Source: Candidatus Marinacidobacterales bacterium (lineage in GTDB: Bacteria > Acidobacteriota > Vicinamibacteria > Marinacidobacterales > DATDRI01). Taken from it: DNA of 64,000 nt. The stretch spans positions 1,824,001 to 1,888,000 of the forward strand of contig OZ245365.1 of the NCBI GenBank assembly GCA_965226495.1. Reading direction: 5' to 3'. The notes beneath the pieces were generated by a model. The model was not told where the DNA came from. It did no database searches and saw nothing but the letters and a program-made list of their open reading frames with translations. Of the stretch, positions 28,984 to 48,755 are shown one piece after another (the stretch's first letter is position 1; each line of letters begins with the position of its first letter). A program made the position numbers and the translations under genes.

Positions 28984-29058
28984 TGGTGGGCGATGCAGGA
29001 TTTGAACCTGCGACTTCTACCGTGTGAAGGTAGCACTCTCCCACTGAGTTAATCGCCC
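28984..29058 (-). tRNA. tRNA-Val(CAC)
   Basis: GGGCGATTAACTCAG..CTACC-TTCACAC-GGTAG..GGTTCAAATCC..ATCGCCCACCA cloverleaf with encoded CCA. Confidence 0.97.
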
Positions 29059-43311: not shown

Positions 43312-43389
43312 GGCGGGGTAGCTCAGTCTGGTTAGAGCGACGGACTCATAACCCGTAGGTCGGCGGTTCAAGTCCGCCCCCCGCTACCA
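43312..43389 (+). tRNA. tRNA-Met(CAT), probably elongator
   Basis: GGCGGGGTAGCTCAG..ACGGA-CTCATAA-CCCGT..GGTTCAAGTCC..CCCCGCTACCA; paired 1:72 and no 3GC anticodon stem. Confidence 0.95.
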
Positions 43390-44602: not shown

Positions 44603-44869
44603 ATGAAGAAGAAGCGGTTCACAGAGGAGCAGATCATCGGGGTCTTGAAAGAGGCGGACGCGGGCATGGCGGTGACGGAGCTTTGCCGCAAGCACGGGAT
44701 GTCGAACCCGACGTTCTACAAGTGGCGAGCGAAGTACGGTGGCATGGACGTGCCGGATGCGCGACGTCTGAAACAACTCGAGGATGAGAACCGGCGCCTG
44801 AAGGGCTTGGTGGCAGACCAGGCGTTGGACATCCAGATGCTGAAAGCCGTGAACGCAAAAAAATGGTGA
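44603..44869 (+). CDS. IS3 transposase OrfA
   Basis: [31 protein letters not shown]; ends at the A7 slippery site 44857-44863. Confidence 0.95.
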
Positions 44870-45687
44870 GTCCTGCCGTGAAGCGCGAGGCGGCGACGTG
44901 GCTGACGGAGAAATTCAGAGTCAGTCAACGTCGTGCGTGCAGGACGTTGGAGCTCAGCCTCGGTACATGCCGCTATATCAGTCGTCGCGACGATGGTGGT
45001 GTAATACGTGAACGGATGCTCGCCATGGCCGAACAACGCCCTCGGTTCGGATACCGTCGCCTCTGGGTTCTACTTCGCCGCGAAGGCCACCGGGTCAATG
45101 TGAAGCGCGTCTACCGTTTGTATCGTATTGAAGGACTGAAGCTTCGAACGAAGAAGCGCAAGCGGGTATCCCACGAACACCGGACGCCGTTGCGTGAACC
45201 CAACACGGTGAACGAGCGATGGTCGATGGATTTCGTCTCGGACCAGCTCGCCAACTCTCTCCGATTCCGTACGCTCAACGTCGTCGATGATTGCAGCCGC
45301 GAGGCGTTGGTGATCGAAGTCGCCAGATCCTTGCCCGGCTCAGCGGTTGTCAACGCGCTCGAAGCGGTCGCTGAACTACGCGGCTACCCAGAACAGATTG
45401 TCATCGACAACGGTCCGGAATTTCGAGGTCGCATCCTCGACGCCTGGGCCTACGAACATGGCGTCGAGCTCCGGTTCATCGAGCCTGGGAAGCCGACACA
45501 GAACGCGTTCGTAGAAAGTTTCAACGGTCGGTTCCGAGACGAGTGTCTCAACCAGCACTGGTTCGTCAGCCTGGCAGACGCCCAGCGCACAATCGAACAA
45601 TGGCGCCAGGATTACAACACGGCGCGACCCCACAGCTCGCTCGGCAATCGAACACCAGCTGAGTTTGCTCGGGAACGCGTCGCATGA
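44863..45687 (+). CDS. IS3 transposase OrfB (DDE integrase core), -1 frame
   Basis: [27 protein letters not shown] and RPHSSLG motifs. Confidence 0.95.
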
Positions 45688-46928: not shown

Positions 46929-47139
46929 CAGCCCCCCGCTAGTTTCGGTGGCCGATCCCGGAGACGCAAGTGGCGAGATGGGATCTGACCGTCGTCTGGC
47001 CACGCTTTTTCCTTGCACATCGTATTTTGACGGCAAAACAAGTGTCAGCGGGGCGGAACTGTTGGAAACCTCACATAAACGCAAGCTAGAGGACATGCTC
47101 GAACGGTAGCGAACGTATACTGGCGGGTGGAGGTGGTCG

Positions 47140-48129
47140 ATGCTTCTGCACGCAGTCGTCCTATACACGATGCTGGCTCCCAGCCAGAAGATCGTTCAGG
47201 TTGTTGAAAAAGACGCCATACCGGCGATCGATGATCCCAAGTTCGTGAGCGCTGAGGAGGGTGACAAGTTCCTGTCCGACAACGAGCTCGTCATCGGGCT
47301 CTTCGATGGGGAGGCGGCGAAGGCTTACTCCGCCTGGATACTCGATGGACACGAGATCGTGAACGACCGGCTCGGAGACACACCCGTCGCCGTTACTTGG
47401 TGACCACTCGCGCATACGGGCATCGTGTATGCCCGCGAAGTGGAAGGGGAGGAGCTCACCTTCGGTGTCAGCGGAAAGCTCATCGAGGATTCTTTGGTGA
47501 TGTACGATCGCGAGACCGATAGCCTCTGGCCGCAGATCGATGGGACCGCGATCTCGGGACGCTACGAAGGCAAGCAGCTTCGTTCCATCGCCTCCTCGCT
47601 CTTAACCTGGAAGGAATGGAAGAAGCTCCATCCGGAGACGCTCGTGCTCCACACCGGAGAACGCGCGCGCGGCTCGGCTTACGCGAGCTATTTCAATGAC
47701 CGTTCCATCGGGATCGGTTACGCGACGGTGACCGACAAACGCCTGCACGGGAAGGAAAAGGTGATCGGCGTCTACGTCGAGGGGCAAACGTTGGTATTTC
47801 CTCTGAAGAAGCTCAAGAAAAAAAAGTCGGCTCAAGTGCGGCTGGCCGGAGTGCCTTTGGTGGCGGCCTACGCCAAGGGTGCGAAGACCGCGGTGGCGTT
47901 TTTGGCCCGGTCGGAGAACGGCCGCGAGTTGACGTTCGGCGAAGTCGAGAAGGAAGACGATCGCCTGACGATGAAGGACGAGCAGACGGGTACGACATGG
48001 CTGGTCCTTTCGGGAGAAGCCATTGTCGGTCCTCTTAAGGGCGAGCACCTAGAGCCGGCCCGCGCTCTCGTTGCCTTTTGGTACGCGTGGCAGACCTTCA
48101 ACCGCGATTCCGAGATCTGGGGAGAGTAG
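47140..48129 (+). CDS. DUF3179-family exported selenoprotein (UGA at 47401-47403 read as Sec)
   Basis: KDAIPAIDDPKF..HEIVND..VTW-UGA-PLAHTG..FGVSGKL...LVMYDRETDSLWPQ..G..FWYAW; both ORFs share a frame; hairpin 3' of the UGA. Confidence 0.85.
47410..47437 (+). promoter_or_regulatory. Putative bacterial SECIS element
   Basis: CGGGCAT (47417-47423), loop CGTGT, ATGCCCG (47429-47435); the G-containing loop starts about 20 nt after the UGA. Confidence 0.6.
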
Positions 48130-48141
48130 GAGGAACCGGCG

Positions 48142-48755
48142 TCAGGCGGCCGCTTGCGGCTCTTTGGGCTCTTCTTCTTCGATTGCCATCAAAAATGCGG
48201 CGGCGAGGCACTCCAATAGCAGCAGCATGCTCGTAAAGGACTTCGTCATGACGACGCTTTTTTCCGCCGCTTCCGCCACTAGCTTCCGCCGGCAGACGCC
48301 CGCCAACTGGCTGTCGGCGTGACAGGTTACGGCGACCGTCTCGGCCCCCATTTTTTTTCCCAGGAGCTCGGCCGCCCTAACCGCCTCCGTCGTTTCGCCG
48401 GACCGGGAGATGACGATTCCCGCCGGCTTACCGGTTCGGGAAAAGAGGGAGCTCGGATGCAGGAACACGTCGGAAGCTGTATTTGGATGGGTGCTAGAAA
48501 TTCTAGCGTCGAGAGGGATGATAGATGGCAAGACACGGTCACGGCGCGACCGGCGCGACCCGCGATGGCGGTCCAGGCCGACGCCGCAGAGAGGGCCAGG
48601 TAGTACGAGGTCCCGCAGCCGGTGAAGAGCAATCTCTTGTCGGCAAACCCTTCGAGCGTGGCCCGGATGTTCTCTCCATCCGAACGGAAGCGGTCGAACG
48701 TTTTAGCCCAAGCCTGGGGCTGCTCTTTGATTTCAGTCTCAGTAAAGGTGGTCAT
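48142..48755 (-). pseudogene. SIS-domain sugar isomerase (AgaS/GlmS-like), interrupted and truncated
   Basis: EIKEQP, GCGTSY, ISRSGETTE and EKSVVMTKSFTS motifs; 59-nt insert at 48478-48536; second SIS domain missing. Confidence 0.85.

What the first reader, a model, noticed from the sequence alone, without database searches (positions are those of the whole stretch)
47140..48129. Hidden exported selenoprotein: DUF3179-like gene with in-frame UGA in a U-x-x-A motif and a SECIS-like hairpin
Seen: ORFs 47140-47403 and 47425-48129 share a frame, and one TGA (47401) splits VTW|PLAHTG. A perfect 7-bp stem with a G-containing loop (CGGGCAT-CGTGT-ATGCCCG) lies just 3' of it. Known: DUF3179 proteins carry a TYCPLC-like CxxC at this position, so the UGA occupies the first Cys. 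From memory, Sec-containing members of this family exist. Inference: a 329-aa selenoprotein with a signal-like N-terminus in which the second Cys is Ala. That points to a mono-selenol extracytoplasmic redox or metal-binding site without a resolving thiol, which gene callers would split in two.
Basis: partly seen in the sequence, partly recalled or inferred. Interest (0 to 1): 0.8.

Follow-up and report, generated by a model that had tools for sequence, protein, structure and literature searches.

The report
Split-annotated DUF3179 selenoprotein gene
This is one real gene for a selenium-containing protein of an already listed but functionally unknown family, which gene finders cut in two at the selenocysteine codon; it is unusual only in having no cysteine at all beside its selenocysteine.

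Summary
Window 47140-48129 (+) is one frame of 329 codons with a single TGA at 47401-47403, and the hairpin CGGGCAT-CGTGT-ATGCCCG lies at 47417-47435.

The read-through product matches Pfam DUF3179 end to end (E 4e-84). The genome has selA, selB, tRNA-Sec and a selD that itself carries a TGA.

All 81 TGA-bearing DUF3179 sites I examined (20 in relatives, 61 in other phyla) have the TGA at the first Cys of the family's CxxC motif. They share the 7-bp hairpin in one fixed register: 95.5% paired, with compensatory changes at 5 of 7 pairs. The 39 Cys-coding homologs show 1-6 of 7 pairs there.

dN/dS is 0.08-0.34 on both sides of the TGA. Contigs from four studies read TGA.

Public databases hold the gene as two products of 87 and 209 aa.

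DUF3179 is already listed as a prokaryotic selenoprotein family (motif UxxC/T, traced to a 2007 paper), so this is a new member of a known kind. Its particulars are Ala at the fourth motif position and no Cys anywhere. A further result is that the family is a tandem duplication of a Rieske-like fold.

Function remains inferred: probably an extracytoplasmic redox selenol.

The parts
47129..47134 (+). Shine-Dalgarno-like GGAGGT, 5 nt upstream of the ATG
   Evidence: Read from the sequence. No alternative start codon lies in the 10 open codons upstream.
47140..48129 (+). Complete selenoprotein gene: 329 codons plus TAG stop; DUF3179 family
   Evidence: PF11376, E 4.1e-84, residues 24-322. dN/dS is 0.08-0.34 on both sides of the TGA.
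47140..47187 (+). N-terminal hydrophobic segment (residues 1-16, MLLHAVVLYTMLAPSQ), a possible signal peptide or membrane anchor
   Evidence: Model confidence is low here (pLDDT 48-65). Homologs carry N-terminal hydrophobic or signal-like segments. No predictor was run.
47401..47403 (+). UGA read as selenocysteine (residue 88), aligned with the first Cys of the family's CxxC motif
   Evidence: TGA is kept in orthologs of 88%, 92% and 62% identity. Contigs of 4 runs show no other letter here.
47417..47435 (+). SECIS core: 7-bp stem (47417-47423 with 47429-47435) and 5-nt loop CGUGU (47424-47428); the stem starts 13 nt after the UGA
   Evidence: 95.5% of cells paired over 77 distinct sequences, compensatory change at 5 of 7 pairs, 25-49% paired when the partner is slid.
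47263..47649 (+). N-terminal Rieske-like beta domain (residues 42-170), which carries the Sec knuckle
   Evidence: hhalign of N half against C half: Prob 99.9, E 8.5e-34. VIA-align: Z 6.7 to the Rieske domain of 1z01_A over model residues 56-160.
47734..48120 (+). C-terminal Rieske-like beta domain (residues 199-327), a duplicate without the Cys/Sec knuckle
   Evidence: VIA-align: Z 8.4-8.8 to Rieske ferredoxins and a NirD-type small subunit over model residues 213-323.

Best explanation
Window 47140-48129 is one intact gene for a 329-residue selenoprotein of the DUF3179 family. Shown by comparison: the UGA at 47401 is recoded as selenocysteine by the genome's SelB/tRNA-Sec system, which is recruited by a hairpin 13 nt downstream (7-bp stem, loop CGUGU) that lies inside the codons for T-G-I-V-Y-A-R. 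From the model and profile comparison: the protein is a tandem duplication of a Rieske-like beta domain. The Sec sits in the N-terminal copy at the first position of the family's CxxC motif, at the end of a predicted strand and before a short turn. Here the fourth motif position is Ala, and the protein has no Cys, so the selenol is its only thiol-like group. Inferred: the protein is exported or membrane-anchored by its short hydrophobic N-terminus, and the Sec is a redox-active nucleophile that an external partner recycles. That partner would most likely be a thioredoxin-like (TlpA/AhpC-TSA type) protein rather than an internal resolving Cys. A single-ligand metal or metalloid site is the alternative chemistry.
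For: Sec machinery in the genome: selB 377.7 bits, selA 570.1 bits, selD 332.6 bits with one in-frame TGA, tRNA-Sec 70.9 bits. All are above the curated cut-offs. TGA is otherwise an ordinary stop: it closes 16 of 32 long open frames in the window.

Family: PF11376 at E 4.1e-84 spans both ORFs.

Sec/Cys pairing: in 41 genomes of relatives, 21 matches carry one TGA. I examined 20 of them, and all 20 have the TGA at the first Cys of CTLC/CPLT/CPLC. Of 78 loci from other phyla, 58 have TGA there and 20 have TGC or TGT.

SECIS: at the fixed register, the 20 TGA sites of relatives show 5-7 of 7 pairs (15 with 7/7), against 2-6 of 7 in 19 Cys homologs. The 61 TGA sites from other phyla show 7/7 in 49, 6/7 in 10, 5/7 in 1 and 3/7 in 1, against 1-5 of 7 in 20 Cys loci. 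Over all 81 sites, 95.5% of cells pair against 25-49% when slid, 61 cells at 5 of 7 pairs show compensatory change, and the covariation score of 0.378 exceeds all 500 shuffles. One covarying pair links the Ile/Val first base to the synonymous third base of Tyr.

Both halves are under purifying selection: dN/dS 0.34/0.21, 0.08/0.24 and 0.17/0.29 (5' part/3' part) in three ortholog pairs, with TGA kept although dS exceeds 1.

The TGA is not an assembly error: contigs of 4 runs from 4 studies cover it with no other letter (one of them may be the source).

No Cys in the protein. In 16 of the 20 Sec homologs from relatives, the Sec is the only Cys-like residue of the domain.

Fold: AlphaFold2 model with pLDDT 92.1 and pTM 0.89; Rieske-type matches; internal duplication.

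Redox hint: AhpC-TSA/Redoxin/thioredoxin-like ORFs flank 5 loci and a DsbD_TM ORF flanks 1 more, out of about 75 loci scanned, spread over several phyla.

Print: review tables list DUF3179 as a selenoprotein family with motif UxxC/T.
Against: There is no experimental evidence of Se incorporation or of expression here. No run that holds the stretch is on record as RNA.

By folding energy alone the hairpin region is unremarkable (z -0.34).

The ortholog in G002 is broken into two frames just 5' of the TGA and again near its 3' end. The gene is therefore dispensable there, or that assembly has indel errors.

The ortholog in G001 has a different last ~12 residues next to an IS21-type element.

The N-terminus has no positively charged n-region, so export is uncertain.

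This gene's own neighbours give no functional support: an IS3-type transposase, an unknown ORF, a SIS fragment and PBP1A.

The thioredoxin-like neighbour signal is weak (6 of about 75 loci), is absent at this locus, and was not tested against a background rate.
Confidence: 0.93

Rival explanations
1. It is a pseudogene: a TGC or TGT Cys codon mutated to TGA, killing a DUF3179 gene. The two ORFs would be remnants.
For: Databases annotate two fragments of 87 and 209 aa. The gene sits beside an IS3-type transposase. The G002 ortholog is frameshifted.
Against: TGA stands at the same codon in all 81 homologous TGA-bearing sites examined, across several phyla. dN/dS is 0.08-0.34 on both sides with dS above 1. 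A covarying hairpin is present only in the TGA forms. The Sec machinery is complete.
Confidence: 0.03
2. Two separate small proteins are made (87 aa, and 209 or 234 aa from a downstream start) that assemble into a split DUF3179. The TGA would be a true stop.
For: A GTG at 47425 and an ATG at residue 121 could serve as starts.
Against: Residues 88-120 between the fragments are conserved and include the family's signature motif. The Cys-coding homologs examined are single chains. In the model the stop would cut the chain where a predicted strand ends (residues 81-88) and leave the next strand (93-98) uncoded. The hairpin covaries as RNA.
Confidence: 0.02
3. The UGA is read through as another residue (Trp or Cys by near-cognate or suppressor decoding) and not as Sec.
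For: Low-level UGA read-through as Trp or Cys occurs in bacteria, for example when selenium is scarce (general knowledge, recalled).
Against: The genome has a dedicated tRNA-Sec, SelA, SelB and SelD. The site pairs with Cys, not Trp, in homologs. The hairpin stands at the position expected for a bacterial SECIS. TGA is a normal stop elsewhere in the window.
Confidence: 0.02

Closest known systems
DUF3179 domain-containing selenoprotein family (PF11376; motif UxxC/T), as listed in reviews of prokaryotic selenoproteomes and traced there to Zhang & Gladyshev 2007
   Same: Same Pfam domain. Sec at the same position, the first residue of the CxxC-type motif. The SECIS hairpin is in the same register and often has the identical stem sequence: for example L098, L101 and L111 (UPLC forms) also have CGGGCAT.cgtgt.ATGCCCG.
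   Different: The fourth motif position is Ala (U-P-L-A-H), not Cys or Thr. The whole protein has no Cys, whereas the 51 parsed UxxC Sec forms have 1-3 Cys besides the Sec. A full-text search for 'selenoprotein' with 'UxxA' found 0 papers. The same UPLAH motif occurs in 3 Acidobacteriota MAG loci: L126, L139 and L146.
Rieske-type (ISP) fold: Rieske ferredoxins and the NirD-type small subunit of nitrite reductase (e.g. 1vm9_A, 3gce_A, 3c0d_A)
   Same: Each half of the model has this beta fold. C half: Z 8.8, rmsd 2.7, 93 residues aligned to 1vm9_A, and the first 45 of the 50 rows shown are Rieske-type. N half: Z 6.7 to 1z01_A. Foldseek gives probability 1.00 over about 100 residues but E no better than 3.4e-3.
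   Different: There are no CxH...CxxH cluster ligands (0 Cys). There is no profile-level similarity to 25 Rieske domains from relatives (hhalign Prob 4-6%). The low-confidence alignment places the Sec knuckle in the hairpin before Rieske box I, not at a cluster-binding loop.
Bacterial SECIS of the E. coli fdhF type (SelB-binding hairpin just 3' of the UGA, inside the coding region)
   Same: A stem-loop immediately 3' of the UGA within the reading frame, with G in the apical loop. A review passage describes the SECIS as a stem-loop immediately 3' of the UGA.
   Different: Here the stem is a perfect 7 bp with a 5-nt loop CGUGU and a 13-nt spacer. No Rfam family matched this site at gathering score.

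Membership tests
Bacterial selenoprotein gene (SelB/SECIS-dependent UGA recoding) | In-frame UGA with conserved, selected coding sequence on both sides | tested here: met
   One TGA in a 329-codon frame. The Pfam domain spans it. dN/dS is 0.08-0.34 on both sides.
Bacterial selenoprotein gene (SelB/SECIS-dependent UGA recoding) | UGA aligns with Cys in homologs (Sec/Cys pair) | tested here: met
   81 TGA sites and 39 Cys-codon sites from fetched DNA (plus the Cys proteins of alignment A2) fall in the same column.
Bacterial selenoprotein gene (SelB/SECIS-dependent UGA recoding) | Stem-loop (SECIS) immediately 3' of the UGA, conserved as structure | tested here: met
   95.5% paired, 5 of 7 pairs with compensatory change, 25-49% paired in slid controls, and 1-6 of 7 pairs in Cys forms.
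Bacterial selenoprotein gene (SelB/SECIS-dependent UGA recoding) | selA, selB, selC (tRNA-Sec) and selD in the genome | tested here: met
   All four are over the curated cut-offs in G000.
Bacterial selenoprotein gene (SelB/SECIS-dependent UGA recoding) | Selenium shown in the protein (75Se labelling or mass spectrometry) | not testable with these tools
No RNA run was listed among the holders.
DUF3179 (Pfam PF11376) | Match to the family HMM above the gathering score over its full length | tested here: met
   282.9 bits against a cut-off of 27; profile positions 1-290 of 292.
DUF3179 selenoprotein as listed in print (UxxC/T) | Sec at the first motif position | tested here: met
   the review rows are.
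DUF3179 selenoprotein as listed in print (UxxC/T) | Cys or Thr at the fourth motif position | tested here: not met
   U-P-L-A. In relatives the position is also D, G, S or T.
Rieske [2Fe-2S] proteins | Rieske-type beta fold | tested here: met
   Z 8.8 for the C half and Z 6.7 for the N half. These are middling Z values by the tool's own note, but the first 45 of the 50 rows shown are all Rieske-type.
Rieske [2Fe-2S] proteins | CxH...CxxH cluster ligands | tested here: not met
   The protein has 0 Cys. hhalign against Rieske domains gives Prob 4-6%.
Sec-pathway exported protein | N-terminal signal peptide with n-, h- and c-regions | tested here: inconclusive
   An h-region-like stretch LLHAVVLYTMLA is present, with no Lys or Arg before it. 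Homologs have clearer signal-like N-termini. No signal-peptide predictor was available.

The most novel reading that the evidence does not exclude
The U-x-x-A forms define a Cys-free, mono-selenol subtype of DUF3179. This covers the gene here, its orthologs, the UPLAN forms of relatives, and UPLAH forms in Acidobacteriota (the two of these that were parsed keep one other Cys). In this subtype a lone selenocysteine, at a turn between two strands of a tandem Rieske-like fold, would do extracytoplasmic redox chemistry and be recycled by an external thioredoxin-like partner. That the family tolerates C, T, A, D, G or S at the fourth position, but nearly always keeps Cys or Sec at the first, would mean the widespread 'CxxC' of this unknown-function family is really a one-residue active site. 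That would give a direct experimental handle on what DUF3179 does.
Probability: 0.3. Interest if true: 0.5.

Novelty: new member of a known kind. Interest (0 to 1): 0.3.

Why it matters
The gene is mis-annotated in public databases as two hypothetical proteins, and so are its close relatives: the five nearest database entries are all C-terminal fragments. Among the DUF3179 loci most like this gene, most are Sec forms (58 of 78, a set biased towards Sec forms by the query). The family is therefore a sizeable, systematically truncated group of selenoproteins in Chloroflexota, Acidobacteriota and other phyla.

The very uniform SECIS (fixed 13-nt spacer, 7-bp stem, loop mostly CGUGU) could serve as a simple rule for re-annotation.

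For the biology of the family, the Cys-free UxxA form, the tandem Rieske-like architecture and the occasional thioredoxin-like neighbours narrow the hypotheses to a single redox-active or ligand residue outside the cytoplasm. The function itself is still unknown.

Tried and rejected
- Rfam at gathering score: only two tRNAs in the window, nothing at this site.
- Single-sequence folding: z -0.34, not informative.
- NCBIfam: 0 families for the read-through protein.
- PDB sequence search with the family profile: nothing better than E 0.65.
- Foldseek against PDB: no match at E <= 1e-3. The Rieske-type signal came from the probability column and from VIA-align.
- hhalign of either half against 25 Rieske domains of relatives: Prob 4-6%, so no sequence-level link.
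- Gene neighbourhood of this gene and of 15 Sec loci of relatives (68 flank ORFs): no recurrent neighbour.
- Wider flank scan (142 ORFs; only the longest ORF within 960 bp on each side of L099-L174): only weak recurrences, namely AhpC-TSA/Redoxin in 5 loci, DsbD_TM in 1, GNAT in 5, DUF1684 in 3, and SMC_N plus Pribosyltran in 4. Several of these are probably shared synteny within one clade.
- Expression: no RNA holder was listed among the runs.
- The careful maximum-likelihood tree did not finish, so a quick tree was used. A FastTree of 144 rows did not resolve whether all UPLAH forms make one clade (support 0.75).
- The protein atlas does not take a protein read through a stop, so no language-model or Atlas structure neighbours were obtained.
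- One weak TGA-bearing partial match in G012 was not examined.
- Supplements of the papers were not opened.

Full report
**Observation**

- ORFs 47140-47403 and 47425-48129 share a frame.
- The only interruption is TGA at 47401-47403, in the context VAVTW-U-PLAHTG.
- The perfect 7-bp stem with loop CGTGT lies at 47417-47435 and starts 13 nt after the UGA.
- A GGAGGT lies 5 nt before the ATG at 47140. The open frame reaches only 10 codons further upstream and holds no other start codon, so the start is well placed.
- Folding energy alone does not single out the hairpin: z = -0.34.

**What the gene is**

- Read through, the 329-residue product matches Pfam DUF3179 (PF11376) over residues 24-322. 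The score is 282.9 bits against a cut-off of 27 (E 4.1e-84). NCBIfam has no model for it.
- The genome (G000, one contig of 6.34 Mb) has all four Sec components above the curated cut-offs: selB, selA, tRNA-Sec, and a selD that itself holds an in-frame TGA in TSAGUASKL.
- TGA is otherwise a normal stop. It closes 16 of the 32 open frames of 300 codons or more in the window.

**Comparative evidence for Sec in relatives**

- A six-frame search of 41 genomes (G000 and 40 relatives) found DUF3179 matches in 33. Twenty-one matches carry exactly one TGA.
- I fetched and aligned 20 of these. The remaining one, a weak partial match in G012, was not examined.
- In all 20 the TGA stands at the first Cys of the family motif.
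- The Sec forms fall into four motif groups: WUPLAH(T/A)G (this gene and its orthologs in G001, G002 and G026), WUPIDHSG, WUPL(A/S/G)N, and WUPLTGSG.
- The Cys forms in the same genomes are YCTLCGSG (including this genome's own paralog) and FCPLTGSG.

**Comparative evidence for Sec in other phyla**

- A pattern scan of one genome per GTDB species returned 591 relatives. The best 80 were kept, giving 78 loci.
- Of these 78 loci, 58 have TGA at this codon and 20 have TGC or TGT.
- The TGA-bearing loci come from Chloroflexota (many Dehalococcoidia and Anaerolineae), Acidobacteriota, Marinimicrobia, Nitrospinota and others.
- This fraction is biased, because loci were ranked by likeness to a Sec form.
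- Most of the 58 are UPLC forms. Three are UPLAH like this gene: L126 and L139 (Thermoanaerobaculia MAGs) and L146 (an Acidobacteriota MAG).

**SECIS**

The same hairpin, in the same register relative to the UGA, is present in the TGA forms and not in the Cys forms.

| Set | Sites | Pairs out of 7 at the fixed register |
|---|---|---|
| TGA sites, relatives | 20 | 7/7 in 15; 6/7 in 2; 5/7 in 3 |
| Cys homologs, relatives | 19 | 2-6 of 7 |
| TGA sites, other phyla | 61 | 7/7 in 49; 6/7 in 10; 5/7 in 1; 3/7 in 1 |
| Cys loci, other phyla | 20 | 1-5 of 7 |

- The 61 sites from other phyla include three tandem paralogs found in the flanks.
- On the alignment of all 81 sites (77 distinct), 95.5% of cells pair, against 25-49% when the 3' partner is slid by 1-3 columns.
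- Five of the 7 pairs show changes on both sides, in 61 cells.
- The covariation score is 0.378, against a shuffled mean of 0.120 (0 of 500 shuffles reach it). The 20-sequence set gave the same picture.
- Several compensatory changes involve synonymous or amino-acid-changing positions together. A-U against G-C links the first base of Ile/Val to the third base of Tyr. G-C/C-G against C-G/U-A links Gly...Ala to Ala...Ser. The constraint is therefore on the RNA and not only on the peptide.

**Selection and sequence accuracy**

| Ortholog pair | dN/dS 5' of the TGA | dN/dS 3' of the TGA |
|---|---|---|
| G000 vs G001 | 0.34 | 0.21 |
| G000 vs G026 | 0.08 | 0.24 |
| G001 vs G026 | 0.17 | 0.29 |

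- TGA is retained in all three pairs, although dS exceeds 1 in the two comparisons with G026.
- Nineteen runs from 6 studies hold at least 0.91 of the sampled words of the gene.
- Contigs of four runs from four studies were laid on 47000-48200. They show no other letter between 47000 and 48059. One of these runs may be the assembly's source.

**Annotation state**

- The five database proteins nearest to the query are 209-239-residue C-terminal fragments. Full-length hits begin at 45% identity.
- An exact look-up shows an 87-residue and a 209-residue product on the 6,337,479-bp contig. Residues 88-120, which include the signature motif, are therefore unannotated.

**What is already known**

[quoted passage not shown] I saw the table rows by passage search in PMC9312934 and PMC13188914.
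- PMC13188914 attributes this row to Zhang & Gladyshev 2007 (reference seen).
- I read passages and section 12 of that paper (PMC1976440). It names new families OS_HP1-3 and does not use the DUF3179 name, so the mapping is the reviews'.
- A third paper only lists a DUF3179 protein in a table (PMC9230427).
- A full-text search for 'selenoprotein' with 'UxxA' found 0 papers. A search for 'DUF3179' found only these three.
- No supplements were opened.

**What is particular here**

- The fourth motif position is Ala, and the protein contains no Cys at all.
- In 16 of the 20 Sec forms from relatives, the Sec is the only Cys-like residue in the domain envelope.
- The 51 parsed UxxC Sec forms from other phyla keep 1-3 Cys besides the Sec.
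- Cys forms with Ala at the fourth position also exist: WCPLAN in P0012, P0112 and P0121. Two homologs have Ser at the first position.
- On a quick tree of 75 rows, the Sec label needs 3 changes, of which at least 2 are forced by well-supported branches. This gene's clade sits inside a WCPLC(G/Y)TG clade (the careful search was unfinished).
- A FastTree of 144 rows shows Sec and Cys forms interleaved. It does not resolve whether all UPLAH forms are one clade.

**Fold**

- An AlphaFold2 model built from 40 sequences is confident (pLDDT 92.1, pTM 0.89). Residues 1-16 are of low confidence.
- Foldseek finds no PDB match at E <= 1e-3. Its best rows are about 100-residue matches to Rieske ferredoxins and a NirD-type small subunit.
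- VIA-align against 48,161 chains gives Z 8.4-8.8 for model residues 213-323, and the first 45 of the 50 rows shown are Rieske-type. It gives Z 6.7 for residues 56-160 against the Rieske domain of 1z01_A. The tool notes that Z values of this size can reflect a common arrangement.
- Profile comparison shows the two halves are homologous: residues 42-170 against 199-327, Prob 99.9, E 8.5e-34. The C half lacks the Cys/Sec knuckle.
- There is no profile-level similarity to Rieske domains (Prob 4-6%) and there are no cluster ligands. This is a shared fold, not membership of the Rieske family.
- The H of HEIVND (residue 71) is invariant among the 40 aligned sequences. It is Arg or Val in the eight further Sec forms inspected, so it is not a universal catalytic residue.

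**Mechanism**

Shown by comparison: SelB/SECIS-dependent insertion of Sec at residue 88.

Inferred:
- Export or membrane anchoring. The N-terminus MLLHAVVLYTMLAPSQK is hydrophobic but has no positive n-region. Other Sec clades and most homologs have clearer signal-like or transmembrane N-termini.
- A redox-active selenol.
- Recycling by an external thiol. AhpC-TSA/Redoxin/thioredoxin-like ORFs flank 5 loci and a DsbD_TM ORF flanks 1 more, out of about 75 loci scanned, in Dehalococcoidia, Terriglobia, Gemmatimonadota and Dormiibacterota. This is a weak hint, was not tested against a background rate, and is absent at this locus.
- A metal or metalloid ligand role remains possible.

**Verdict**

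This is a genuine selenoprotein gene, hidden by split annotation, in a family already known to contain Sec. It is a new member of a known kind, with a Cys-free UxxA variant of the motif.

Noticed in passing
window 44863-45687 (+): IS3-type transposase ORF (rve, rve_3 and HTH_21 domains) 1.4 kb upstream of the selenoprotein gene. The G001 ortholog is likewise next to an IS21-type element (IstB and a Mu-transposase C-terminal domain, L031:3-1369). The gene therefore sits in regions rich in mobile elements.
   Followed up: partly
window 48142-48755 (-): Two overlapping ORFs in different frames (48142-48531, with the C-terminal part of a SIS domain, and 48327-48755). They look like one SIS-domain gene broken by a frameshift or truncated, convergent with the selenoprotein gene.
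   Followed up: no
L032 (G002:C1:572396-576088): The G002 ortholog (92% identity) is split over two frames just 5' of the TGA and changes frame again near its 3' end. It is either a decaying copy or the result of indel errors in that assembly, which has 9% contamination.
   Followed up: partly
L031 (G001:C7:30173-34153): The G001 ortholog's last ~12 residues differ (…WQTFVFVHSVWPTLLI against …WQTFNRDSEIWGE), immediately beside the IS21-type element. This suggests the insertion replaced the 3' end of the gene.
   Followed up: no
window 47416-47447, run X1 (table 7): A second contig in run X1 matches only the hairpin region. Its loose end reads ...I-A-V-T-W-TGA-P-L-C-F. This is a UxxC DUF3179 selenoprotein gene of another organism in the same sample, with a near-identical (2 mismatches in 32 nt) SECIS region.
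   Followed up: no
L011 (G000:C1:5696278-5700210): The genome's selD is itself a selenoprotein gene, with an in-frame TGA in TSAG-U-ASKL.
   Followed up: partly
L050, L051, L052 (G002, G020, G016): The WUPIDHSG Sec clade carries an N-terminal extension with an EF-hand-like stretch (D-x-N/D-x-D-G-Y/F-I-T-x-D-E) between the signal peptide and the DUF3179 domain. The EF-hand likeness is recalled and was not tested.
   Followed up: no
L115, L118, L122: Some Dehalococcoidia loci hold two DUF3179 genes side by side. Both carry the TGA and the hairpin, so they are tandem Sec paralogs.
   Followed up: no
relatives: Sec-DUF3179 paralogs are multiplied in family f2 and in this genus, with up to three TGA-bearing copies in one genome (G026). 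All 14 matching genomes of family f3 have Cys-form (CTLC-type) matches and no TGA form.
   Followed up: partly
window 28987-29058 (-) and 43312-43386 (+): Two tRNA genes were the only Rfam matches at gathering score in the window.
   Followed up: no
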